Position numbers and translations under genes: made by a program. This document shows positions 3,108 to 56,866 of a stretch of DNA of 64,000 nt, piece after piece. Source of the DNA: a virus (taxonomy: Duplodnaviria; Heunggongvirae; Uroviricota; Caudoviricetes); IMG/VR virus record IMGVR_UViG_2675903433_000022; one strand, given 5' to 3'. The notes under the pieces were generated by a model. That model was not told the origin of the DNA, did not search any database, and saw only the letters and a list, made by a program, of their open reading frames with translations. The first letter of the stretch is position 1; every line of letters starts with the position of its first letter.

Positions 3108-3812
3108 ATGACCACCTTTACCAAAGAACAGTTAATCTCCCATGCACGCGAAAGCGTTAGTTATCTGGAAAACTTGAAAGGACGTGTTAGCAAAGAAGGT
3201 GCGGACTGCAAAGTTGTTATTGAGATGGTTGCACGAGATCTAAAACTGGCTCGAATTGCACTGACCTCACTTGAGACAAAACCAATAGGTGCATTCCACA
3301 TTGCAGAACAGCAAGTTGACGGTACAAGTGACTACATCAAGGATGGAGAGTGGCCTATTGATAATGGGACAATTGAAGTATACGCCGCCCCTCCAGTGCC
3401 AGTAGTACCGGAAGAAAAACCAATGCCTAATCCTCTTAGCATGTACGCGGTTGATGCTGTTGCCGCTATTGCAGAGGTGAGAGGCTGGAACGCCTGTCGT
3501 GCCGCTATGCTTCAGAGTCAAGATAATTGCATTAAGGATGGTTGGATAAGCTGTAGTGAGCGAATGCCTGTAATCGGCGAGCTAAATTGGAGAACTGGTT
3601 TTCCTTTGCTGATTACGTGTGAGATCGGCGTTATACCAGCTTATTACGGCTTTGTGAGCGTTAATGGGGATAAGCATTATGGTTTTATGGAAAGTTTTAA
3701 ATACGGAGACGATCGCGGCGGCCATCCTAAAACTAATGAATATGGTCTGATTAGCAATGTCACACACTGGATGCCGCTACCAGAACCTCCGCAGGAGTCG
3801 AAGAGTGAATAA
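3108..3812 (+). CDS. Hypothetical protein (paralogous N-terminus)
   Basis: 234 aa; MTTFTKEQLI start shared with the 2392 product. Confidence 0.6.
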   Translation: MTTFTKEQLISHARESVSYLENLKGRVSKEGADCKVVIEMVARDLKLARIALTSLETKPIGAFHIAEQQVDGTSDYIKDGEWPIDNGTIEVYAAPPVPVVPEEKPMPNPLSMYAVDAVAAIAEVRGWNACRAAMLQSQDNCIKDGWISCSERMPVIGELNWRTGFPLLITCEIGVIPAYYGFVSVNGDKHYGFMESFKYGDDRGGHPKTNEYGLISNVTHWMPLPEPPQESKSE

Positions 3813-7079: not shown

Positions 7080-8180
7080 TCACACTGCGCGGAATGCGAT
7101 TTCGCCAGGTATTACTTCACCTTGCCAATACATTTGGGCAGCAACGCGATCTGCGAGGTCACGATAAATAGCCGTAAATTCGCTATCTGGACGACTAATA
7201 ACGGTTGGTGTTCCGTTATCCAGATCTTCACGAAGAGAGATATGAAGTGGCATTTGGCCTAACAACTGCGTGTTGTATTTCTCGGCCAGTTTCTGTGCGC
7301 CACCGGTGCCAAAAATTGGCTCGTGATGACCGCAGTTACTGCAAATATGCATACTCATGTTCTCGACAATACCGAGCACCGGAACCTCGACTTTCTCGAA
7401 CATCACAATGCCTTTTTTCGCATCGATCAACGCGATGTCCTGCGGCGTAGTTACCACAACCGCACCAGTTACAGGAATGTTCTGCGCCAGCGTCAATTGA
7501 ATATCACCAGTGCCCGGCGGCATATCGAGAACGAGATAGTCCAGATCAGGCCATAGAGTTTCCTGCAACATCTGCATTAACGCCTTGCTCGCCATCGGAC
7601 CACGCCACACCATCGCATTGTCGTCAGTTACCAGATAACCAATTGAATTGGTTGCCAGTCCATGAGACATAATCGGTGCCATGTGAGTACCGTCCGGTGA
7701 GGTTGGACGTTGGTTTTCCGCGCCAAGCATGGTTGGAATTGATGGCCCGTAGATATCGGCATCCAAAATACCAACTTTCGCACCTTCAGCAGCCAACGCC
7801 AGTGCCAGGTTTACCGCCGTGGAGGATTTACCAACGCCGCCCTTGCCTGAGCTGACGGCGATAATGTTCTTAACGCCATTAATGCCTGGTTGGTTTTTGA
7901 CGCGCTTAAGCGTGGCAATGTTGTACGACAGCTTCCAGTCGATAGCCTTTGCGCCAGTGATACGGAGCAGATCACCACTACATTGCTCTTTCAGGTCTTC
8001 AAAAGGCTTATTCCACACGAAAGGCATGATTAGTTCGACATGCAGTGTGTCATCCATCAACGCAACATGGTGTAACGCTTTAAGCGTAGTCAGGTTGTGT
8101 TTCAGGGTTGGGTGCTGAAAATTAGCCAGCGTACCGGCTACCATTGCTCTCAGGGCATCCGGCGATTTGGACTCGCTCAT
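7080..8180 (-). CDS. apbC: Fe-S cluster carrier ATPase ApbC/Mrp
   Basis: 366 aa; SSGKGGVGKSSTAVNLALALA Walker A, CSNCGHHEPIFG motif; ortholog-level similarity to enterobacterial Mrp; divergent from metG as in enterobacterial chromosomes. Confidence 0.9.
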   Translation of the reverse strand: MSESKSPDALRAMVAGTLANFQHPTLKHNLTTLKALHHVALMDDTLHVELIMPFVWNKPFEDLKEQCSGDLLRITGAKAIDWKLSYNIATLKRVKNQPGINGVKNIIAVSSGKGGVGKSSTAVNLALALAAEGAKVGILDADIYGPSIPTMLGAENQRPTSPDGTHMAPIMSHGLATNSIGYLVTDDNAMVWRGPMASKALMQMLQETLWPDLDYLVLDMPPGTGDIQLTLAQNIPVTGAVVVTTPQDIALIDAKKGIVMFEKVEVPVLGIVENMSMHICSNCGHHEPIFGTGGAQKLAEKYNTQLLGQMPLHISLREDLDNGTPTVISRPDSEFTAIYRDLADRVAAQMYWQGEVIPGEIAFRAV

Positions 8181-8337
8181 CCCGTCTCCTTTATTTTAAT
8201 TTGCGCAATTGTCGCCTTGTAGTGTACTCCAGCTACGGCATTTAATCATTTATGAGAAATGCTGTTATCACATGGCAGACATAAGGCCATTTTGTTACTA
8301 TCAAGCCCCTTTTCACTACAAAGAAGTAATGCCTACT

Positions 8338-10371
8338 ATGACCCAAGTCGCGAAGAAAATTCTGGTGACGTGCGCGCTGCCGTACGCTAACGGCTCAATC
8401 CACCTCGGCCATATGCTGGAGCACATCCAGGCTGATGTCTGGGTTCGTTACCAGCGAATGCGCGGCCACGAGGTTAATTTCATCTGTGCCGACGATGCCC
8501 ACGGTACGCCGATCATGCTGAAAGCACAGCAGCTTGGTATCACACCGGAGCAGATGATTGGCGAAATGAGTCAGGAACACCAGACTGATTTCGCAGGCTT
8601 TAACATCAGCTATGACAACTATCACTCGACGCACAGCGAAGAGAACCGTCAGTTGTCTGAGCTTATCTATACTCGCCTGAAAGAGAACGGTTTTATTAAA
8701 AATCGTACCATCTCTCAGCTGTACGACCCGGAAAAAGGCATGTTCCTGCCGGACCGTTTTGTAAAAGGCACCTGCCCTAAATGTAAAGCGCCAGATCAAT
8801 ACGGCGATAACTGTGAAGTCTGCGGCGCGACTTACAGCCCGACTGAACTGATCGAGCCGAAATCGGTAGTTTCTGGTGCTACGCCGGTAATGCGTGATTC
8901 CGAACACTTCTTCTTTGATCTGCCTTCTTTCAGCGAAATGTTGCAGGCATGGACCCGCAGCGGTGCGTTGCAGGAGCAGGTGGCAAACAAAATGCAGGAG
9001 TGGTTTGAATCTGGCCTGCAACAGTGGGATATCTCCCGTGACGCACCTTACTTCGGTTTTGAAATTCCGAACGCGCCGGGCAAATATTTCTACGTCTGGC
9101 TGGACGCGCCGATTGGCTACATGGGTTCCTTCAAGAATCTGTGCGACAAGCGCGGTGATACCACCAGCTTCGATGAATACTGGAAGAAAGACTCCACCGC
9201 CGAGCTGTACCACTTCATCGGTAAAGATATTGTTTACTTCCACAGCCTGTTCTGGCCTGCCATGCTGGAAGGCAGCAACTTCCGCAAGCCGACCAACCTG
9301 TTTGTTCATGGCTATGTGACGGTGAACGGCGCAAAGATGTCCAAGTCTCGCGGCACCTTTATTAAAGCCAGCACCTGGCTGAATCATTTTGACGCTGACA
9401 GCCTGCGTTACTACTACACTGCGAAACTCTCTTCGCGCATTGATGATATCGATCTCAACCTGGAGGATTTCGTTCAGCGCGTGAATGCCGATATCGTGAA
9501 CAAAGTGGTTAACCTGGCCTCCCGTAATGCAGGCTTTATCAACAAGCGTTTTGACGGCGTGCTGGCAAGCGAACTGGCTGACCCGCAACTGTACAAAACC
9601 TTTACTGATGCCGCTGAAGTGATTGGTGAAGCATGGGAAAGCCGCGAATTTGGTAAAGCGATTCGTGAAATCATGGCGCTGGCTGATCTGGCTAACCGCT
9701 ATGTCGATGAACAGGCTCCGTGGGTGGTGGCGAAGCAGGAAGGACGCGATGCCGATCTGCAGGCGATTTGCTCTATGGGCATTAACCTGTTCCGCGTGCT
9801 GATGACGTACCTGAAACCGGTACTGCCGAAACTGACTGAACGTGCAGAAGCATTCCTGAATACAGAACTGACCTGGGATGGTATCCAGCAACCGCTGCTG
9901 GGCCATAAAGTGAATCCGTTCAAGGCACTGTATAACCGTATCGATATGAAACAGGTGGAAGCACTGGTGGAAGCATCCAAAGAAGAAGTGAAAGCCACAG
10001 CTGCACCGGTAACTGGCCCACTGGCTGACGACCCGATTCAGGAAACCATCACCTTTGACGACTTCGCCAAAGTTGACCTGCGTGTGGCGCTGATTGAAAA
10101 CGCGGAGTTTGTCGAAGGTTCTGACAAACTGCTTCGCCTGACGCTGGATCTCGGTGGTGAAAAGCGTAATGTCTTCTCAGGCATCCGTTCCGCTTATCCA
10201 GATCCACAGGCACTGATTGGTCGTCACACCATTATGGTGGCTAACCTGGCTCCGCGTAAAATGCGCTTCGGTATCTCTGAAGGCATGGTGATGGCTGCTG
10301 GCCCCGGCGGGAAAGATATCTTCCTGTTAAGCCCGGATGCTGGTGCTAAACCTGGCCACCAGGTTAAGTAA
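8338..10371 (+). CDS. metG: Methionyl-tRNA synthetase
   Basis: 677 aa from [29 protein letters not shown] (HIGH motif), KMSKS present, C-terminal tRNA-binding domain; track ORF 8209 is an upstream in-frame extension. Confidence 0.95.
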
Positions 10372-17618: not shown

Positions 17619-18143
17619 TCAAAAAGGCAAAATTCGCTCAACCCAATCGAACAAAACAACTATTTTTCTACCGTTCTCGACACGTAGTGTAACCTGACAA
17701 GCATCTGCGCCTGCTGACACTCCCTCAATTTCACGGCCATCCGCCATGTACACCCTTATAGATTTGTTTGCTTTGTAGGCTTGGTTGCAAATTGCAAAAA
17801 AATCGCGGCGTGATGGCCGATTATCGACATAATCAGGGTGAACTGTTAGTCGACCTTTGAAATCGTGAGCGATACTGTCAACCACACCTGATTCAATTGT
17901 ACTAATGCGTTCAAGTGGGAGCCTTATACGATTTTCTTTATCAAAAGGGGCTGGGCAAAGGTCAACTTTGTTACGAGATGGCATGAGGCCATAAACGTAC
18001 ATGCAAAACGCCTGGCCATCTTCGAGAGTGACCCTTACAGGAATTTGTTCTCTGCGCCAGAACATCAGTAGTTTTTCAACGTTAGTGTAATCTCGCGGCC
18101 AGAGTTCAGCTTGGATACCGTAGGTAATATCTTTGGTTGTCAT
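17619..18143 (-). CDS. Hypothetical protein
   Basis: Start MTTKD directly after the upstream stop; track ORF to 18221 overlaps the upstream gene. Confidence 0.5.
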   Translation of the reverse strand: MTTKDITYGIQAELWPRDYTNVEKLLMFWRREQIPVRVTLEDGQAFCMYVYGLMPSRNKVDLCPAPFDKENRIRLPLERISTIESGVVDSIAHDFKGRLTVHPDYVDNRPSRRDFFAICNQAYKANKSIRVYMADGREIEGVSAGADACQVTLRVENGRKIVVLFDWVERILPF

Positions 18144-18147
18144 GTCA

Positions 18148-18612
18148 TCACAGAGTTGTTGGCAGAATGTCGATGTCACCAGAATTGCTGGTGAACACCC
18201 TGAACGCTTTTGTGTCTCCATTCTTCAGAGTCGTTTCTCGCTCTTGACGAGCGGGGTTTAGAGCACATAAACCTGCACCTTCAAGAGATGCACCCACAAT
18301 TAATTCTCCGGCATTTAAATGGAAAGTCGCTTTTTCGCCTGTAGCCAGTTTTGCGACAGTTTCGCCGTTGATGAAAATGGAAGCATCACATCCAGCTCCT
18401 ACAAAACCTGTGTCTCTCATTACCACCAACGTAGCTGGCGCTGCGCTTTGATACTTGAACACTTTGGCCTGCGGTGCTGGTTTGGCGTCATGGATTGATA
18501 TTGGGCGTGATTGGCACGCGGTAAGCATCAACACTGGTAACGTTAGTAGAGGGAGAAGCGAGTATTTCATGATAGTTTTAGAACAGAAAGTGAACAGTAT
18601 GGGAGACTTCAT
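18148..18612 (-). CDS. Putative lipoprotein
   Basis: Signal peptide with lipobox LTAC (…LPLLTLPVLMLTAC); RBS agggagacaaag before the first ATG; a shorter start at MKYSLL is possible. Confidence 0.6.
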   Translation of the reverse strand: MKSPILFTFCSKTIMKYSLLPLLTLPVLMLTACQSRPISIHDAKPAPQAKVFKYQSAAPATLVVMRDTGFVGAGCDASIFINGETVAKLATGEKATFHLNAGELIVGASLEGAGLCALNPARQERETTLKNGDTKAFRVFTSNSGDIDILPTTL

Positions 18613-20543: not shown

Positions 20544-21242
20544 GTGGATTGTAGCAATAAAATGGATGTAAAAATCACGATTTTGCAGGTTGATGTTGCC
20601 AACCTTCGCCCGAATACCTGGAACACCAATTCGGTTGGTGCGCAGAATTTTGAAAAACTGAAAGGTTCTATCGAAAAATTGGGCTTTTTTAAGCCAATTT
20701 TGGCTCGTGAACTTGAAGATGGATTTTTTGAAATCCTCGGCGGCGAACATCGCTGGCGTGCTGCTATTGAGCAAGGAATTTCAACGGTTCCGGTGCTTTC
20801 TGTGGGCAAAATTAGCGATGTCGTAGCTAAACAGATGTCACTGGTGGACAACGAGCGATACGGTGAAGACGACCAAATCGCATTGCAACGCTTCATTGAA
20901 GAAATTCAGTCAGAACTTGACTATCAACTGTCTGAAATCGCCCCGTATGACGACGAAATCTCGATGGTTTTAGCAAAAGAGGCGGCAATCGACCTTGAAG
21001 CACTGGAGGCGTTGTCTCGTGGTAGTGATGAGCCTGTCGATACCGACAAACGAGAGAAAACCGAACGTGTGGGGGCGGAACATCAGACCATGCGCTTCAA
21101 AGTAACTTTCGATGCGTCAGATCGTGTTGCAGAAACCATAAAAAACATCATCAAAGAGCAGGCTATTAACACCGGTAATGAAATGGAGAACGCTGGTGAG
21201 GCTCTGGTGTGGCTGGTCGACTACTACAAGGAGCGTATGTAA
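20544..21242 (+). CDS. ParB/Srx-fold (ParB N-terminal domain) protein 1
   Basis: VANLRPNTWNTN and GGEHRWRAA motifs typical of the ParB nuclease-like domain; start ambiguous (GTG 20544 or ATG 20562). Confidence 0.7.
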   Translation: MDCSNKMDVKITILQVDVANLRPNTWNTNSVGAQNFEKLKGSIEKLGFFKPILARELEDGFFEILGGEHRWRAAIEQGISTVPVLSVGKISDVVAKQMSLVDNERYGEDDQIALQRFIEEIQSELDYQLSEIAPYDDEISMVLAKEAAIDLEALEALSRGSDEPVDTDKREKTERVGAEHQTMRFKVTFDASDRVAETIKNIIKEQAINTGNEMENAGEALVWLVDYYKERM

Positions 21243-21910
21243 TGACCAAAAAGTTTGAAATCGTATATCGCGACCCGGCAGATCTTATTCCCTATGAGAT
21301 GAATGCCAAAAAGCATGATGAACAGCAGATCCGAGATCTGGCCGCAGCCATTAAAAAGCGCGGATTTGACCAGCCAATTACGGTCGATAAGAACGACGTA
21401 ATTATTACTGGCCACGGCCGCCGTGAGGCTGCAATTTTTGCTGGACTTGAGCGCGTGCCGGTTATTGTTCGCGATGATCTCAGTGATGACGAGGTTCGTG
21501 CGAAGCGCCTTGAAGATAACCGACTTGCCAGCATTGATTACGATGCAATTAAGCTACAGAAAGAGCTTGAGTCGCTTGTTCTGGACGATATCGAGGTTTT
21601 CGGCTTTGAAGAGCGTGAGTTGAATGTTCTCGTTGGCAGTATGACAGAAGAAATGGACACCGACTCGCTAGTTATCGATCTTGGCGAAGAAACTAAACGA
21701 CAGAAGGATGAACACACCGAGATCAGTCGCGAAGTTGCAGCGGAAGAAGTACGTGTTGTCGACGTATTGGGCTTTAAAACGCTTCCTGCTGGCTCTGCCA
21801 TTGTTGTTGGTGATTTGCTTGCCCACATGGAAGAAATGACGGGAGAGAGCGGGGTAGACGCATTTGTGGCATATGCGGAGAAGATCTCTTCCGGGGAGAT
21901 GGCTGCATGA
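21242..21910 (+). CDS. ParB/Srx-fold (ParB N-terminal domain) protein 2
   Basis: LIPYEMNAKKH...GHGRREAA motifs; ATG overlaps upstream stop (TAATG); RBS AAGGAG. Confidence 0.7.
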   Translation: MTKKFEIVYRDPADLIPYEMNAKKHDEQQIRDLAAAIKKRGFDQPITVDKNDVIITGHGRREAAIFAGLERVPVIVRDDLSDDEVRAKRLEDNRLASIDYDAIKLQKELESLVLDDIEVFGFEERELNVLVGSMTEEMDTDSLVIDLGEETKRQKDEHTEISREVAAEEVRVVDVLGFKTLPAGSAIVVGDLLAHMEEMTGESGVDAFVAYAEKISSGEMAA

Positions 21911-22572
21911 GCAAATACATCATCAACGTATCGTTTCAGACTCGCGTAAATAAAACCACGCGCACATTGGAAATCGCTGAGTCGTTCGGGCTTGGCCTGG
22001 ACGAAAAAGAGTGGACGCTTTACGACAATCTGGAGCTGGAAGTGAAGCAGGGCGATGTGGTGTACATCACCGGCCAATCCGGTTCCGGCAAATCCGTTGT
22101 GCTGCGCGAGTTGCAACGACAGATGAAGGATGAAGGGCTGTCTGTAGCCTCCATCGATGATTTTACCTTCGATAATGAGGTTAACGTCATCGATCAGTTG
22201 GGCAAAACGACCAGTGATGCGCTTGGGTTGTTATCTATGGCTGGTCTGAACGATGCATATCTGTTTGTTCGCAAGCCTTCTGAAATGTCAGACGGCCAGA
22301 AATATCGTCTCAAGATTGCCAAACTGATTGAGTCAGGCGCTAAAGTGTGGGCTGCTGACGAGTTCGGCGCTGTTCTCGACCGTGTAACCGCTCAGGTTGT
22401 GGCGTCTAACCTCCAGCGTGCCGCTCGAAAGGTTGGTGCGACGGTAATGGTGGCGACGACTCACGAAGACCTGAAGAACGCGCTGCGCCCGGATATGCAG
22501 ATCACCAAGCACTACAAAGAACGCGTGAAGGTGGAATATCACAATGGTAGTCATGATGAGGTCCATTCATGA
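21907..22572 (+). CDS. ABC-type ATPase (no transmembrane partner)
   Basis: Walker A GQSGSGKS, signature-like MSDGQKYRL, Walker B VWAADEF, H-loop TTHE; ATGA-coupled. Confidence 0.7.
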   Translation: MSKYIINVSFQTRVNKTTRTLEIAESFGLGLDEKEWTLYDNLELEVKQGDVVYITGQSGSGKSVVLRELQRQMKDEGLSVASIDDFTFDNEVNVIDQLGKTTSDALGLLSMAGLNDAYLFVRKPSEMSDGQKYRLKIAKLIESGAKVWAADEFGAVLDRVTAQVVASNLQRAARKVGATVMVATTHEDLKNALRPDMQITKHYKERVKVEYHNGSHDEVHS

Positions 22573-23459
22573 CGGACATCATCATTAAACGCTACCGCCC
22601 TGAAGAGTTTCCGCGTCATCTGGACTTTCTGGAGCGAATGACTGTTACAAAGGGAACTGTAGAGGACTGGCACGCTCTTAAGTCGCTTCACTACAAAACA
22701 GACGGCAAACCTTTCGCGCCAACTTACTATCGCTGCGAACTTGATGACCGTCTGGTGGGCGTCGTGGTTATGGCTTACCCGAAACTACTGTTGGCACCTC
22801 GCCACCGCATGTTTCCTAAGTTGAAACCAACCACTAATACCACCGTGGCTAACCAGTACTGGGGTCGGTACGTGAATAACAACTTTGCGGTGATCAGTCG
22901 CTCAGTTGTGGATACTCAGTATCGTGGCGTAGGCGTCTCTTATCGAATGATTAACCTGGTTAGCAGGATGCATGACCGGCCAATCATTGAGATCCAGTCC
23001 TCGATGAGCAAATACAATCCCTTCGCCATGAAAGCAGGGTTTAAGTTCATCCGCCCTGAGCGACCGAAGAGCTATGAAAGTGCACTGCGTGTATTCCAGC
23101 GCCATTTCCGTTCCGACCCGGGTGATAACGAGGCGATCGTCAAAGAGTTGTTCGCAATGAGCGAGTCTCGTCGTCGCCGTGCACTGCGTGATCTGGTGGC
23201 GGACTACCACAAGAACAGTTCCCTGGCAAAAGCTGGGCGGAATCGTGGCACTACGATTCAGGACATTGCCGACAGTCTGGTGGACGAGGCCAGCATTGTG
23301 AAGCTGCTCAAGGACATTCACAACCTGAGCTTTACGTCTCCGTTGTATGGTGTGTACCGAAACCCTGACTTTGGCCGTCGACTGCCTGACACGCTGCCAC
23401 TGCTGGCATTCGACAAACAACCTTTGGATAAACCGTTAGAAATTGCTTTACCGGCATAA
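22569..23459 (+). CDS. Hypothetical protein with GNAT-like acetyltransferase motif
   Basis: VVDTQYRGVGVSYRMINLV resembles GNAT motif A; ATGA-coupled to the ATPase gene. Confidence 0.5.
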   Translation: MTDIIIKRYRPEEFPRHLDFLERMTVTKGTVEDWHALKSLHYKTDGKPFAPTYYRCELDDRLVGVVVMAYPKLLLAPRHRMFPKLKPTTNTTVANQYWGRYVNNNFAVISRSVVDTQYRGVGVSYRMINLVSRMHDRPIIEIQSSMSKYNPFAMKAGFKFIRPERPKSYESALRVFQRHFRSDPGDNEAIVKELFAMSESRRRRALRDLVADYHKNSSLAKAGRNRGTTIQDIADSLVDEASIVKLLKDIHNLSFTSPLYGVYRNPDFGRRLPDTLPLLAFDKQPLDKPLEIALPA

Positions 23460-51879: not shown

Positions 51880-51940
51880 ACAAGAAGGTGAAATGTGATA
51901 TAAATCCGCCATCCCGATTTGACTTTTCATGGAGGAAAAC

Positions 51941-53551: not shown

Positions 53552-53935
53552 ATGCTGAACGAAAAACGTTCTATACAAACAATTCGCGATTGCACGAGTG
53601 TTATCGCAACTCATGTGCTGAATAAGCGCAAACTTGAGGTGCGTAAACTTAACAACGATGCGACTGCGCCAAAAGACACTCGCTTCATCGTAACTTTCAA
53701 AGACGATGTTGAGAATGCTGGTGCCAGTGTAAAACCGTTGGCTGAAGCGATTTTCCTGAACGATCGTGTTCGTTTCATTGTGAAGCCAGCAAAACAATAC
53801 CCTGAATTAGCACGGTTTAGTGACCAATTCTCTGAAATTATTGAGAGTGCAATTCGCCGCTTTCTTAATACTCATGGTAGCATTGTCAGCAATACAACTG
53901 CTGATGGTACTGCTCTAAGATGGCACCTACACTAG
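53552..53935 (+). CDS. Hypothetical protein
   Basis: 127 aa; RBS ctaaggtggac. Confidence 0.5.
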   Translation: MLNEKRSIQTIRDCTSVIATHVLNKRKLEVRKLNNDATAPKDTRFIVTFKDDVENAGASVKPLAEAIFLNDRVRFIVKPAKQYPELARFSDQFSEIIESAIRRFLNTHGSIVSNTTADGTALRWHLH

Positions 53936-54672
53936 AACGCACATACTCTAAAAATCTTTATGAGTTTCCTCACCGTGGGGAAACTCGCGTTTCACGTTTT
54001 GGCTACCTCATCAACGAAGCATCGCTTTTCAAAATATCTGAAATAACCATTATCGAGCCTGATGATGATATCTGTCTGTATATCCTGATGGAGAAAGTTG
54101 GAGCACGAGATCAGGGTGAACTGATGGACTTCATTCTGGACAGAGGCGAAGATGGAATGTCTGATTCGGACATTATTCAAGCAATTCTGCGTTCCGACAT
54201 GCTCGATCAGAGCAGAAACACGATAGCAGGCAGAATTGCCTTGCGTGAATACACATTCATCGAGGATGGGGTAGAGATTGACTGCTATCAGATTGCAGGT
54301 GTTGAAACAGAAAGAGCAATAAGGCAAAGGGGACTGTGCAACCTCACGTATCGCTTCCTCCTTCATTGGTACGAACATCTTGTCTGTGATTACAATCAGA
54401 CCATTCCTGGCGCAAAAATCTGGGCCGGTCCATTAATGCGAACAGGTGATGTAAGAATTTACAACGCAAAAACTGAGACGTTCGAGGATGTGTTAGGCGA
54501 ATATGGGATGGGAAAAGAAACCGGCTTTTTGCCGTGGAACAGAGGATTGTTACTTGATCCAGAATTAAGCTCTTGGTTTCCAAATAAGGTGCAAGTTAAC
54601 GTTGAGAAATTTATCGTACTTATCATCTCCCGCAAAACAAGAACCCCAGTTGGTTTATATCTAAAAGATTAA
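53920..54672 (+). CDS. Hypothetical protein
   Basis: 250 aa, overlaps upstream gene by 16 nt. Confidence 0.55.
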   Translation: MAPTLERTYSKNLYEFPHRGETRVSRFGYLINEASLFKISEITIIEPDDDICLYILMEKVGARDQGELMDFILDRGEDGMSDSDIIQAILRSDMLDQSRNTIAGRIALREYTFIEDGVEIDCYQIAGVETERAIRQRGLCNLTYRFLLHWYEHLVCDYNQTIPGAKIWAGPLMRTGDVRIYNAKTETFEDVLGEYGMGKETGFLPWNRGLLLDPELSSWFPNKVQVNVEKFIVLIISRKTRTPVGLYLKD

Positions 54673-54677
54673 CAATT

Positions 54678-54700
54678 AGGCGACTTCTGTCGCCTTTTTT
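54678..54700 (+). terminator. Rho-independent terminator
   Basis: aggcgac-ttct-gtcgcct hairpin plus TTTTTT. Confidence 0.65.
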
Positions 54701-54800
54701 GTTAACAGCCATTGATTCTCGCCTAAAAATTCTAAGGCAGCACCTACCATTTAACCTTTACACAGCAGCCGTAGGCATTTAGGCTATATCACATATAAGA

Positions 54801-54813
54801 AAACAAGTTGTTT
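54801..54813. promoter_or_regulatory. AAACAAgTTGTTT palindrome upstream of parA-like gene
   Basis: Perfect copy 36 nt before the ATG. Confidence 0.45.
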
Positions 54814-54848
54814 CAGACAATAATAATAGACGCAAAGGGAACTCTCCA

Positions 54849-55517
54849 ATGACCAAGATCTTTGTGGTTGGCGGCACAAAGGGCGGGCCTGGCAAATCCA
54901 CTGTTGCCCAGCAAATTGCCGTTTGCCTGAAAGTCAAAAAGAAGAAGAAGGTTTATATCACTGATATAGATATTCAGCGCACGACAACAAGCTGGTGTGA
55001 AGACCGTCGACAGAACGAAGACCTTGAGCTGATTCCTTTTGCCTACGTTCAGGATGACATCATTAAGCACCTAAAATCGCTTCAGGGTAGAGCTGAGTTT
55101 GTAGTGGTAGATGCTGGTGGCTTTGACTCCGAAATTCAGCGACAAGCGATGCTGATGGCCGACGTTATCATTATCCCGCTGCGTCCTAAGCGTCGTGATT
55201 TGAAATCTCTGCGTGACATCGATCCTATTATCGACAATGTTCGTAATGTAAACGATAAAGTGAAGGTCCGCGCGGTCATGAACCAGTGCCCGGCTTTGCC
55301 ATCACAAGTGTCTCGCATTCTGGCGGCTAAAGAGATTGTCGAGACGTTTGGCATCGAGTCTGCGCCAGTCAATCTATATAACCGCAACGTCTACGATGAT
55401 GCGGAAGAGTCTGGTCGTTCTATCTTCGAAATGACCGGTAGCGAGCGCGACAAAAAGGCTGAAGCCGAGTTTGAAGAATTTGTAGATTATCTGTTGAGTC
55501 TGGAGGAAGAAGAATAA
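54849..55517 (+). CDS. ParA/ParF-family partition ATPase
   Basis: Deviant Walker A KIFVVGGTKGGPGKST; 222 aa (small type Ib ParA size). Confidence 0.85.
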   Translation: MTKIFVVGGTKGGPGKSTVAQQIAVCLKVKKKKKVYITDIDIQRTTTSWCEDRRQNEDLELIPFAYVQDDIIKHLKSLQGRAEFVVVDAGGFDSEIQRQAMLMADVIIIPLRPKRRDLKSLRDIDPIIDNVRNVNDKVKVRAVMNQCPALPSQVSRILAAKEIVETFGIESAPVNLYNRNVYDDAEESGRSIFEMTGSERDKKAEAEFEEFVDYLLSLEEEE

Positions 55518-55876
55518 TGTCCATGAAAATGGGTGACCTAGCAAAGCGCAAAGAGCCTGATGCACCGGCTAAGAACACAACTCCTTTGCGCCAACCAGTC
55601 AGACCACAGGGACGCCCGACTCGTGGCAAAGAGAAAATTAAGAGCCGCACGATGTCACTGGAGGACGAATACTTCGAACTGCTGGAGATGATGAAGTTCA
55701 TCCCTCGTTTCGAGAAATTCACCCGTTCAGACGTGATTCGCGCAGCCATTTTCCATCTGGCAGAGAAGTCACCGCAGGAAATCGAGGACATCGTGAAACT
55801 TAACGAGGCGATCACAGCTGCCGATGTCACGATGCGTACCGATGAAATCAAACGAGAGTTGATGAAAAAAGGTTAA
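55517..55876 (+). CDS. ParG-like small partition / centromere-binding protein (putative RHH)
   Basis: 119 aa, basic disordered N-terminus, TAATG-coupled to ParA-like gene. Confidence 0.55.
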   Translation: MSMKMGDLAKRKEPDAPAKNTTPLRQPVRPQGRPTRGKEKIKSRTMSLEDEYFELLEMMKFIPRFEKFTRSDVIRAAIFHLAEKSPQEIEDIVKLNEAITAADVTMRTDEIKRELMKKG

Positions 55877-55928
55877 AAATCATGCATTGGCGCAATGTAC
55901 GCGCCAATGCATAACTACAGTGTCAGCT

Positions 55929-56696
55929 TTATGCCGCGCTAACACTATGTTCAGTCCTAACCACCCCAACCTTCACAAAAGGGCTACCGTAGCTTGGTGG
56001 CTTCTTGATTAATTTGCCTACATACAGTTTTCTAATATGCTCATCGGCTATTCTGCCAACAAATTCATAACGTTTTGTGTCGGGGCCAAGAGCTATATCC
56101 CTTGTAAAGTACTGCTGAGAACCGGCTTTGACCCAGCATTCAATCCGATAAACTTCCATTATCAGCCCACCATATGTAGCGTAGGCATATTTGAGATTCT
56201 CGTCTCTTGGAACCTTTGCCCATACGCCACGCGTAGCTTCATATAATGCCAGAGCGGACATTCCTGACTTGTAGGTGCTGTTTAGCAGGAAGGCAAGACC
56301 GGCGTGCTCAGGAGCAATTTCAGTTTCCTCTTGCAGCACTAAGTGATGGTAGGCGTCCAGTGATATTCTGCCCATCATGGAACCACTTCCTCGTACCTTA
56401 TTCGTAAGCTCTCCGACCCCCATAAGGTCGATGCATGTCGCCTCAACAAGTTTGGCTGTGGTTTCATCCATACCATGACGAAGTATATCTATGCCTAATT
56501 TTTTATTAGCCAAAAGTTCTTTGATCCGCATGGATTTGGGAGAGTCATCGGGATACTTGATGTGATCGAGACAACGAGTCGATTTGCCTTTTCCTATGTA
56601 AAACGGTCTTTTCATCTTGTCTTCTGTATCATAGAGACAGTAAACATAGTATTTAGCCTTATCCAATGATCTCGCGTATACCGATAAATCGTCCAT
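55929..56696 (-). CDS. GIY-YIG nuclease-domain protein
   Basis: N-terminal YVYCLYD...PFYIGKGKSTRCLDHIK matches the GIY-(10-11)-YIG pattern; lone minus-strand gene. Confidence 0.65.
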   Translation of the reverse strand: MDDLSVYARSLDKAKYYVYCLYDTEDKMKRPFYIGKGKSTRCLDHIKYPDDSPKSMRIKELLANKKLGIDILRHGMDETTAKLVEATCIDLMGVGELTNKVRGSGSMMGRISLDAYHHLVLQEETEIAPEHAGLAFLLNSTYKSGMSALALYEATRGVWAKVPRDENLKYAYATYGGLIMEVYRIECWVKAGSQQYFTRDIALGPDTKRYEFVGRIADEHIRKLYVGKLIKKPPSYGSPFVKVGVVRTEHSVSAA

Positions 56697-56807: not shown

Positions 56808-56866
56808 CCTGCTTCCGTATATATAAATAATAAGTAACTTATTAAATATATACAGAAGCAGGTCTT
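56808..56866. repeat. ~56-bp imperfect palindrome, copy 2
   Basis: Core tatatataaataataagtaacttattaaatatatac identical to copy 1; stems reverse-complemented. Confidence 0.6.

What the first reader, a model, noticed from the sequence alone, without database searches (positions are those of the whole stretch)
54801..55876. Plasmid-type ParA/ParG partition module, suggesting a phage-plasmid lifestyle
A 222-aa ParA/ParF-type ATPase (deviant Walker A KGGPGKST) is translationally coupled to a 119-aa basic protein of ParG size. This is a type Ib partition system typical of low-copy plasmids. With the replication genes, the iteron-like arrays and no integrase in 64 kb, the element may be maintained as an extrachromosomal phage-plasmid. 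An SSU5-like element is my guess.
Basis: partly seen in the sequence, partly recalled or inferred. Interest (0 to 1): 0.58.

Follow-up and report, generated by a model that had tools for sequence, protein, structure and literature searches.

The report
Phage-plasmid ParA partition operon, SSU5 type
This is the two-gene segregation operon (a small ParA ATPase and a small DNA-binding partner) of a well-known family of E. coli phages that live as plasmids; it is ordinary, except that the partner protein has never been named and the DNA site it holds is still unidentified.

Summary
A 222-aa ParA ATPase with a deviant Walker A motif (54849-55517) overlaps by one base a 119-aa basic protein (55517-55876).

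The window is an E. coli member of the SSU5 phage-plasmid supergroup: 98% identical to phage PhiR41_1 and 84% to SSU5 itself. The operon occurs in 264 of 5,426 complete E. coli genomes, at 279 places, all on plasmids and none on a chromosome.

The ATPase is closest to the type Ib protein ParF of TP228. It has no N-terminal DNA-binding extension.

The partner is unnamed everywhere: no Pfam family, PHROG "unknown", NCBI "hypothetical". It is not a ParG-family member by sequence. Weak signals from several independent searches indicate a ribbon-helix-helix domain behind a basic tail with a conserved MGDLAKR motif. The structure models did not confirm the fold.

The same two-gene module sits next to replication genes on ordinary Pseudomonas and Acinetobacter plasmids. 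There it is flanked by obvious centromere-like repeats.

Here I could not identify a centromere. The 13-bp palindrome upstream of parA is a genome-wide promoter element. It persists in pMT1, which lacks both genes, so a different protein probably binds it.

Verdict: a new member of a known kind, of modest interest.

The parts
54678..54695 (+). Intrinsic terminator of the upstream gene (53920-54672). It marks the upstream limit of the par transcription unit.
   Evidence: a 7-bp stem with 5 GC pairs, followed by TTTTTTG.
54742..54848 (+). Conserved par promoter and leader. It has a -35-like TTTACA (54759-54764), a TAGGC-N3-TAGGC direct repeat (54772-54784) overlapping the -10 region, the 13-bp palindrome, and the RBS. 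It is the most likely place for the partner's operator or centromere, but this is unproven.
   Evidence: About 76 bp (54749-54818) are almost invariant between the E. coli window, SSU5 and Klebsiella L008, although ParA is only 74-90% identical and the partner about 50%. In many E. coli plasmids the match to the cassette starts at query position 70, which is 54742.
54801..54813 (.). 13-bp palindrome AAACAAGTTGTTT, ending 35 nt before the parA ATG. It is one copy of a genome-wide promoter-associated operator. The RHH partner is probably not the protein that binds it.
   Evidence: 30 strand matches in the window against 3.35 expected. 18 sites in PhiR41_1 and 20 in SSU5, against <1 expected. 6 sites are kept in pMT1, which lacks parA and the partner.
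54849..55517 (+). parA: a 222-aa ParA/MinD-superfamily ATPase of the small (type Ib-like) class. Motifs: Walker A KGGPGKST, Walker A' ITDIDIQ, Walker B FVVVDAGG.
55517..55876 (+). Partner gene, 119 aa, the candidate centromere-binding protein. Layout: conserved N-terminal MGDLAKR motif, variable linker, basic PQGRPTRGK stretch, predicted strand KSRTMSL, helix EDEYFELLEMM, helix TRSDVIRAAIFHLAE, then two further C-terminal helices.
   Evidence: Alignments. RHH signals. PHROG 5111 'unknown function'.
55882..55912 (.). Perfect 12-nt inverted repeat ATGCATTGGCGC-N7-GCGCCAATGCAT between the convergent partner gene and the GIY-YIG gene. It is most likely a terminator; read on the minus strand a T-run follows it. 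It is not part of the conserved cassette.
   Evidence: (I22) and the sequence. In many E. coli plasmids the match ends at about 55872-55880.

Best explanation
This is the active-partition operon of an SSU5-supergroup phage-plasmid. It is a type Ib-like system.

Proposed mechanism:
- ParA-ATP dimers coat the nucleoid.
- Dimers of the 119-aa partner bind plasmid DNA through a ribbon-helix-helix domain (residues about 42-85).
- The partner's flexible basic N-terminal tail, with the conserved MGDLAKR motif, stimulates the ParA ATPase. Plasmid copies are then pulled apart along the ParA gradient (diffusion-ratchet).
- The partner probably also represses its own promoter.
- The promoter additionally carries one copy of a phage-wide 13-bp operator, so expression is also tied to the phage's global regulatory circuit.

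Shown: the two coupled genes, the ATPase motifs and homology, conservation of the gene pair, and its plasmid-only distribution.

Inferred: the RHH fold, the tail function, autoregulation, and the position of the centromere (unidentified, most likely within 54742-54848).
For: ATPase:
- Walker A, A' and B motifs align with TP228 ParF.
- It matches NCBIfam ParA_partition over the full model and PHROG ParA-like.

Conserved pair:
- ParA is always followed by an overlapping or adjacent gene of about 100-146 aa. This holds in SSU5, Klebsiella, Xenorhabdus, a Providencia-like lineage and Moellerella phage-plasmids.
- It also holds in non-phage plasmids of P. syringae, P. aeruginosa and Acinetobacter, directly beside rep genes.
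- The partners are homologous. A profile search links them: 161 proteins at E<=1e-3.

Centromere-like repeats in the plasmid homologues:
- Pseudomonas modules have TAACTTAYRTAAGTTA palindromes both upstream and downstream.
- The Acinetobacter module is followed by 8 tandem ATAACTTC units.
- This is the classic type Ib layout.

Ribbon-helix-helix signals:
- NCBIfam aCcr1 (an RHH family, on my own knowledge), E 2.3e-4.
- 18 of 57 family members hit Pfam RHH_3 or RHH_1, the two top-ranked families.
- A family profile aligns with CopG over strand, helix A and helix B: PDB search E 0.28, hhalign P 0.001.
- JGI names the Pseudomonas homologues 'Arc/MetJ-type RHH'.

Lifestyle:
- 0 chromosomal and 279 plasmid places in 5,426 complete E. 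coli genomes.
- 704 PLSDB plasmid records, most of them 100-115 kb and non-mobilizable.

Module swap:
- pMT1 lacks this pair and carries a P1-type ParAB instead. This fits the pair filling the partition role.
Against: - No experiment on this module turned up in the four literature searches I ran.
- No module-specific repeat array lies next to the operon. The centromere, a defining part of any partition system, is not identified.
- Every RHH sequence signal is below the curated thresholds.
- The parA promoter carries the same operator as the helicase and terminase-region promoters. If that operator belongs to the lysogeny repressor, expression in the plasmid state would be reduced, which is unexpected for a maintenance function.
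Confidence: 0.8

Rival explanations
1. The partner protein binds the dispersed palindrome AAACAAnTTGTTT itself. It would then be both a global repressor of phage operons and a centromere-binding protein with about 20 scattered sites. Precedents are pSM19035 omega, RK2 KorB, and the dispersed centromeres of phage-plasmid N15.
For: - The palindrome sits at the same distance from the parA start (about 35 nt) as the TAACTTA..TAAGTTA palindromes of the homologous Pseudomonas modules.
- It is strongly over-represented at operon starts.
- AAACAA half-sites are mildly enriched upstream of parA in lineages that lack the full palindrome (P 0.002-0.03).
- The N15 Sop system's role in late gene expression is listed in the reference list of PMC11652158; the dispersed N15 centromere sites are from my own knowledge.
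Against: - pMT1 has no homologue of ParA or the partner (tblastn, E<=1e-3). It still keeps 6 near-perfect palindromes at homologous promoters, against 0.2 expected, amid diverged flanks.
- The Xenorhabdus, Providencia-like and Moellerella lineages have an almost identical predicted DNA-reading strand (IKSRTVSMEDEY against IKSRTMSLEDEY). Yet they have no such palindrome at their parA or dnaB promoters.
Confidence: 0.08
2. The true partner of ParA is one or both of the ParB N-terminal-domain proteins encoded 33 kb away (20544-21242 and 21209-21910). The 119-aa protein would then be only a transcriptional regulator.
For: - Both carry Pfam ParB_N (E 3e-13 and 1.5e-8) and match PHROG 'ParB-like partition protein' families.
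- SSU5_125 is annotated as 'ParB-like partition protein'.
- A 2025 preprint uses 'parB' as an SSU5 marker gene.
Against: - The ParB_N pair is retained in pMT1 (86-90% identity), where the small ParA is absent and a complete P1-type ParAB is present. The pair therefore does not travel with this ParA.
- It sits with ABC-like ATPases directly upstream of the terminase genes. It also resembles the N-terminal domains of phage methyltransferases and nucleases.
- Non-phage plasmids carry the ParA plus small-partner pair with no ParB_N gene nearby.
Confidence: 0.04
3. The pair is not a partition system in this element. It might position or regulate something else, for example during lytic growth, or act as an incompatibility or exclusion determinant.
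For: - The promoter shares the operator of lytic-type operons.
- No centromere array was found.
- A homologous pair sits in a housekeeping context on Agarivorans chromosomes, between pilZ and hslVU. This shows that the module can serve non-plasmid cargo.
Against: - Within E. coli the pair occurs only on plasmids.
- In ordinary plasmids it lies next to rep genes and is flanked by repeats.
- No other ParA-type partition system is seen in the window, in the SSU5 annotation or in the PhiR41_1 annotation. These are low-copy replicons of about 110 kb, which would be expected to need one.
Confidence: 0.06

Closest known systems
TP228 ParF-ParG-parH (type Ib partition)
   Same: A small ParA-type ATPase without an N-terminal DNA-binding domain; ParF is the best solved relative (E 1.2e-10). 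It is followed by a small dimeric-type DNA-binding partner with a flexible basic N-terminal tail and a probable RHH domain. The operon order is ATPase, then partner.
   Different: The partner is 119 aa rather than 76 aa. It has no detectable sequence relationship to ParG (no Pfam ParG hit; hhalign null) and carries two extra C-terminal helices. No parH-like array of short repeats lies upstream.
Uncharacterised ParA plus small-partner modules of Pseudomonas (pPT23A-type and P. aeruginosa) and Acinetobacter plasmids
   Same: True homologues of both proteins: ParA 42-47% identical, and partners linked by a profile search. Gene order and overlap are the same. A palindrome lies about 32-35 nt upstream of parA.
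   Different: Those modules are flanked by their own TAACTT-type repeats, and in Acinetobacter by 8 tandem copies. The predicted DNA-reading strand differs (V/K-R-T/L-T-F-S-L against K-S-R-T-M-S-L). They sit beside rep genes, not inside a phage genome.
pSM19035 delta-omega, and RK2 IncC-KorB
   Same: In these systems the partition DNA-binding protein is also a global repressor with several operator/centromere sites. The KorB operator is likewise a 13-bp palindrome (on my own knowledge).
   Different: Here the dispersed palindrome survives in pMT1 without the partner gene. The resemblance is therefore probably superficial.
P1 ParAB-parS and N15 SopAB (phage-plasmid partition, type Ia)
   Same: The same biological role: segregating a low-copy plasmid prophage.
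   Different: Those systems use large ParA proteins with an N-terminal HTH and ParB proteins with an HTH. The SSU5-supergroup member pMT1 uses a P1-type system instead of this one.

Membership tests
ParA/MinD deviant Walker A ATPases (type I partition ATPases) | Deviant Walker A xKGGxxK[ST] with the signature lysine | tested here: met
   TKGGPGKST, with K11 and K16. It aligns with KGGSGKTT of ParF.
ParA/MinD deviant Walker A ATPases (type I partition ATPases) | Walker A' aspartates and the Walker B hydrophobic strand ending in Asp | tested here: met
   ITDIDIQ aligns with VVDTDPQ, and FVVVDAGG aligns with FAIVDGAG of ParF.
Type Ib partition system | Small ATPase (about 200-230 aa) without the N-terminal HTH domain of type Ia | tested here: met
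   The protein is 222 aa. The alignment to the 206-aa ParF starts at residue 9 against residue 8. The NCBIfam ParA_partition model (203 positions) is covered from 6 to 202.
Type Ib partition system | Small centromere-binding protein with a ribbon-helix-helix fold, encoded directly downstream | tested here: inconclusive
Type Ib partition system | Centromere made of repeats next to the operon, which also serve as its operator | tested here: inconclusive
   There is no tandem array near the operon. The only features are a TAGGC-N3-TAGGC repeat and a 13-bp palindrome that is not specific to the module. Homologous plasmid modules do have such repeats.
NCBIfam NF041546 ParA_partition (equivalog) | Score at or above the curated cut-off of 180 bits | tested here: not met
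   115.7 bits, E 1.9e-33. It is a diverged relative, not an equivalog.
ParG family (Pfam PF09274) | Sequence match to the ParG model or to ParG itself | tested here: not met
   No Pfam hit at E<=10 for the window protein or for 8 relatives. ParG is not among the 16 Pfam families hit at E<=0.1 by the 57 family members.
SSU5 supergroup phage-plasmids | Nucleotide or protein similarity and shared gene order with SSU5 and its plasmid relatives | tested here: met
   84% identity to SSU5, with the order lysis genes, parA, partner, helicase, primase. 98% to PhiR41_1. The first 20 kb matches the same plasmids at 96-98%.
SSU5 supergroup phage-plasmids | Maintained as an extrachromosomal plasmid | tested here: met
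   This holds for the family: 279 plasmid and 0 chromosomal places in complete E. coli genomes, and circular records of 100-115 kb. It cannot be tested for this particular contig, because no topology or coverage is given.

The most novel reading that the evidence does not exclude
The 119-aa partner founds an unrecognised family of centromere-binding proteins. The family is shared by SSU5-type phage-plasmids and many Pseudomonas and Acinetobacter plasmids. In the phage-plasmids it would act on the dispersed AAACAAnTTGTTT sites, coupling plasmid segregation to global silencing of phage operons, as KorB or omega do on their plasmids.
Probability: 0.08. Interest if true: 0.65.

Novelty: new member of a known kind. 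Interest (0 to 1): 0.3.

Why it matters
SSU5-type phage-plasmids are common. This module is in about 5% of complete E. coli genomes. According to the literature seen here, these elements carry resistance genes.

How they are stably inherited has not been studied in any paper I found. Their partner protein is 'hypothetical' in every database checked. Naming it as the likely centromere-binding protein links it to a wider plasmid family with visible centromere repeats. That gives a concrete target for stability, incompatibility and curing experiments.

This does not change the general understanding of partition systems.

Tried and rejected
- **Sequence search of the PDB** with the single protein. 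It found nothing meaningful.
- **Centromere search.** I used direct and inverted repeats and TRF around the operon and across the whole PhiR41_1 genome. No array was found. The only strong array, at about 105.3-105.7 kb of PhiR41_1, belongs to the Rep initiator, outside the window.
- **The 13-bp palindrome as the partner's operator or centromere.** Largely rejected after the pMT1 test and the lineage comparison.
- **An early inference that I dropped.** I first thought the Providencia- and Moellerella-type lineages had swapped one global operator for another (TAGGTAT-N4-ATACCTA). A related motif (TAAGTAAGTAnnTACCTA) also exists in this window, so that idea fails.
- **ParB_N proteins as the partner.** Rejected on co-occurrence.
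- **The 12-nt inverted repeat at 55882-55912 as parS.** Rejected. It lies outside the conserved cassette and looks like a terminator for the GIY-YIG gene.
- **Literature.** Four searches found no study of the SSU5 partition module. The paper by Gilcrease and Casjens (2018) is not held.

Full report
**Observation**

The two ORFs are exactly as described. parA runs 54849-55517 (+, 222 aa) and begins MTKIFVVGGTKGGPGKSTV. The second ORF runs 55517-55876 (+, 119 aa). Its ATG shares one base with the parA stop codon (GAATAATG), and a GGAGGA sequence lies just upstream. The second protein is basic overall (pI 9.56). The charge is concentrated in residues 1-47 (pI 11.4), and the C-terminal 72 residues are acidic.

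**What the element is**

- The 4.3 kb around the operon is 98% identical to Escherichia phage PhiR41_1 and 84% identical to Salmonella phage SSU5. In SSU5 the same genes are SSU5_033 ('ParA-like partition protein') and SSU5_034 ('hypothetical protein'). The SSU5_034 annotation is 23 codons short of the conserved start.
- 704 PLSDB plasmids match this region, mostly non-mobilizable replicons of 100-115 kb from Escherichia, Klebsiella, Enterobacter and Salmonella.
- The first 20 kb of the window, including the host-like apbC and metG cargo, lies on the same plasmids.
- In 5,426 complete E. coli genomes the operon occurs in 264 genomes, at 279 places. All are on plasmids and none is on a chromosome.
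- The window has no integrase and no plasmid Rep initiator. In PhiR41_1 the Rep gene and its iterons lie at about 104.4-105.7 kb, outside the stretch this window covers.
- Relatives carry a tyrosine recombinase a few kb past the ligase gene and are still plasmids. An integrase just outside the window would therefore not show that the element integrates.

**The ATPase**

- Pfam gives MipZ, AAA_31 and CbiA.
- NCBIfam ParA_partition covers the whole model at E 2e-33 but scores below the equivalog cut-off.
- PHROG 164 is 'ParA-like partition protein'.
- The best solved relatives are TP228 ParF (4dzz) and the TP228 ParA entry 5u1g. They align from residue 9, with Walker A, A' and B conserved and no N-terminal extension.
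- This places it in the small, type Ib class.

**The partner**

- It has no Pfam family, belongs to PHROG 5111 'unknown function', and is 'hypothetical' in NCBI records.
- The close family is tiny: 18 representatives among 1.84 billion proteins.
- Alignments show a fixed layout. It starts with an invariant N-terminal MGDLAK(R/K) motif and a variable linker. A basic PQGRPTRGK stretch follows. Then comes IKSRTMSLEDEY (a strand followed by the start of a helix), and then F-T-R-S-D-V-I-R-A-A-I, which matches the usual start of the second helix of ribbon-helix-helix proteins.
- Independent weak signals agree on an RHH domain:
  - NCBIfam aCcr1, an RHH family on my own knowledge (E 2.3e-4).
  - RHH_3 or RHH_1 hits for 18 of 57 wider family members; these are the two top-ranked families.
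  - CopG as a PDB profile hit over the whole domain (E 0.28).
  - hhalign against CopG, P 0.001.
  - ORF56 of pRN1 as a weak PDB profile hit, E 0.64; pRN1 as its source is from my own knowledge.
  - JGI's name 'Arc/MetJ-type RHH' for the Pseudomonas homologues.
- The structure route failed. The monomer models (pLDDT 63 and 77) are helical and gave no useful fold match.
- There is no detectable link to ParG itself.
- My conclusion is that the partner resembles ParG in architecture but is not a member of the ParG family.

**The pair is a module**

- ParA homologues down to 42% identity are always followed by an overlapping or adjacent gene of about 100-146 aa. This holds in Klebsiella, Xenorhabdus, Providencia-like and Moellerella phage-plasmids.
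- It also holds in ordinary P. syringae, P. aeruginosa and Acinetobacter plasmids, where the pair lies beside the replication initiator.
- In those plasmids the pair is flanked by repeats of a common half-site. Pseudomonas has TAACTTAYRTAAGTTA palindromes upstream and downstream. Acinetobacter pAS80-1 has eight tandem ATAACTTC units just after the partner gene. This is the usual type Ib centromere layout.
- Agarivorans chromosomes also carry a homologous pair.

**The centromere here**

- No array exists near the operon or elsewhere in the window.
- The conserved cassette runs from about 54742 to the partner's stop codon.
- About 76 bp of the promoter are almost invariant between the E. coli, SSU5 and Klebsiella versions, although the proteins diverge. 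This stretch holds a TAGGC-N3-TAGGC repeat and the palindrome AAACAAGTTGTTT (54801-54813).
- The palindrome is not private to the operon. It recurs at 13 or more intergenic sites in the window: 30 strand matches against 3.35 expected. There are 18 sites in PhiR41_1 and 20 in SSU5.
- It typically lies about 11-13 nt after a -10 box, or overlaps a -35 box. It stands in front of the helicase gene, the terminase-region operon and many small-gene operons.
- Two tests argue that the partner does not bind it:
  - Y. pestis pMT1 has neither ParA nor the partner, and has a P1-type ParAB instead. It still keeps six near-perfect copies at homologous promoters, against 0.2 expected.
  - Lineages with a nearly identical predicted DNA-reading strand lack the palindrome at their parA and helicase promoters.
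- A mild excess of AAACAA half-sites upstream of parA in those lineages keeps a small door open.
- I therefore treat the palindrome as the operator of an unidentified global phage regulator. The centromere remains unidentified, most probably within 54742-54848.

**The ParB-like genes**

- Two ParB_N proteins (20544-21910) sit with ABC-like ATPases upstream of the terminase genes. SSU5's copy is annotated as a partition protein.
- They persist in pMT1 without the small ParA, and they are absent from the non-phage plasmid modules. They are unlikely partners for this ParA.

**Verdict**

This is a type Ib-like partition operon of a known phage-plasmid family. Two things are new, both modest. The partner belongs to an unnamed, probably RHH, family shared with many Pseudomonas and Acinetobacter plasmids. 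The operon's promoter is wired into a phage-wide operator network. Nothing here has been tested experimentally.

Noticed in passing
window 211, 5453, 10457, 10508, 11394, 12588, 13073, 13975, 14739, 23853, 23878, 54801, 57731: A 13-bp palindrome, AAACAAnTTGTTT, marks most plus-strand operon starts. It lies about 11-13 nt after a -10 box or overlaps a -35 box. There are 18-20 copies per genome in PhiR41_1 and SSU5, and it is kept in pMT1. It is probably the operator of an unidentified global phage regulator.
   Followed up: partly
window 25817, 39290, 51860, 56948, 63906: A second dispersed motif, TAAGTAAGTAnnTACCTA, lies just upstream of gene starts (for example the gene at 51929, which by position corresponds to the SSU5 holin, and the 249-aa gene). 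A related TAGGTAT-N4-ATACCTA motif is found in Providencia- and Moellerella-type relatives (L013, L014). It could be a late-promoter or processing signal.
   Followed up: partly
window 56808-56862: A 55-bp AT-rich palindrome (17-nt arms plus an inner palindrome) lies between the GIY-YIG gene and the 249-aa gene that precedes the helicase. It is conserved in SSU5 and Klebsiella. L013 and L014 have 14-nt inverted arms at the same place, with compensatory changes. It is a candidate origin or regulatory structure.
   Followed up: partly
window 55929-56696 (-): The slot directly after the partner gene is a cargo hotspot. Here it holds a LEM-3-like GIY-YIG protein. SSU5 has three other genes there, including a DUF2971 protein. 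Phage Cyrano's annotation lists a RelE/ParE toxin within the matched region around the par genes. Xenorhabdus (L007) has PAAR, TsiV and VgrG genes there.
   Followed up: partly
window 7080-8180 (-) and 8209-10371 (+): Host-like apbC/mrp (Pfam NUBPL-type ParA, E 2e-102) and metG are carried as cargo. They are annotated the same way on about 110-kb E. coli, E. albertii and Shigella plasmids.
   Followed up: partly
window 17619-18221 (-): A protein with a strong match to 'Repressor of phase-1 flagellin' (FljA; Pfam PF03614, E 2.5e-84) is encoded on the phage-plasmid.
   Followed up: no
window 20544-23459 (+): Two ParB N-terminal-domain proteins, an ABC-type ATPase and a fourth protein filed under a PHROG 'ABC transporter ATP-binding subunit' family form a block upstream of the terminase genes. 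The block is conserved in SSU5 and pMT1. Its function is unknown and is probably not plasmid partition.
   Followed up: partly
L015 about 3480-3550; L016 and L017 on both sides of the par pair: The homologous plasmid modules have clear candidate centromeres: eight tandem ATAACTTC units in Acinetobacter pAS80-1, and TAACTTAYRTAAGTTA palindromes upstream and downstream in Pseudomonas plasmids.
   Followed up: partly
L006 6001-6979 (Agarivorans chromosome): A homologous ParA plus 107-aa partner pair sits between pilZ and hslVU on Agarivorans chromosomes of 4.3-4.7 Mb. One source names the small protein 'RepA'. The cargo it acts on is unknown.
   Followed up: no
L002 (NZ_CP146657.1): The closest full-length plasmid match is a 198-kb record typed IncC plus rep_cluster_488, with MOBH and MPF_F. 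This suggests a cointegrate of a conjugative IncC plasmid and an SSU5-type phage-plasmid.
   Followed up: no
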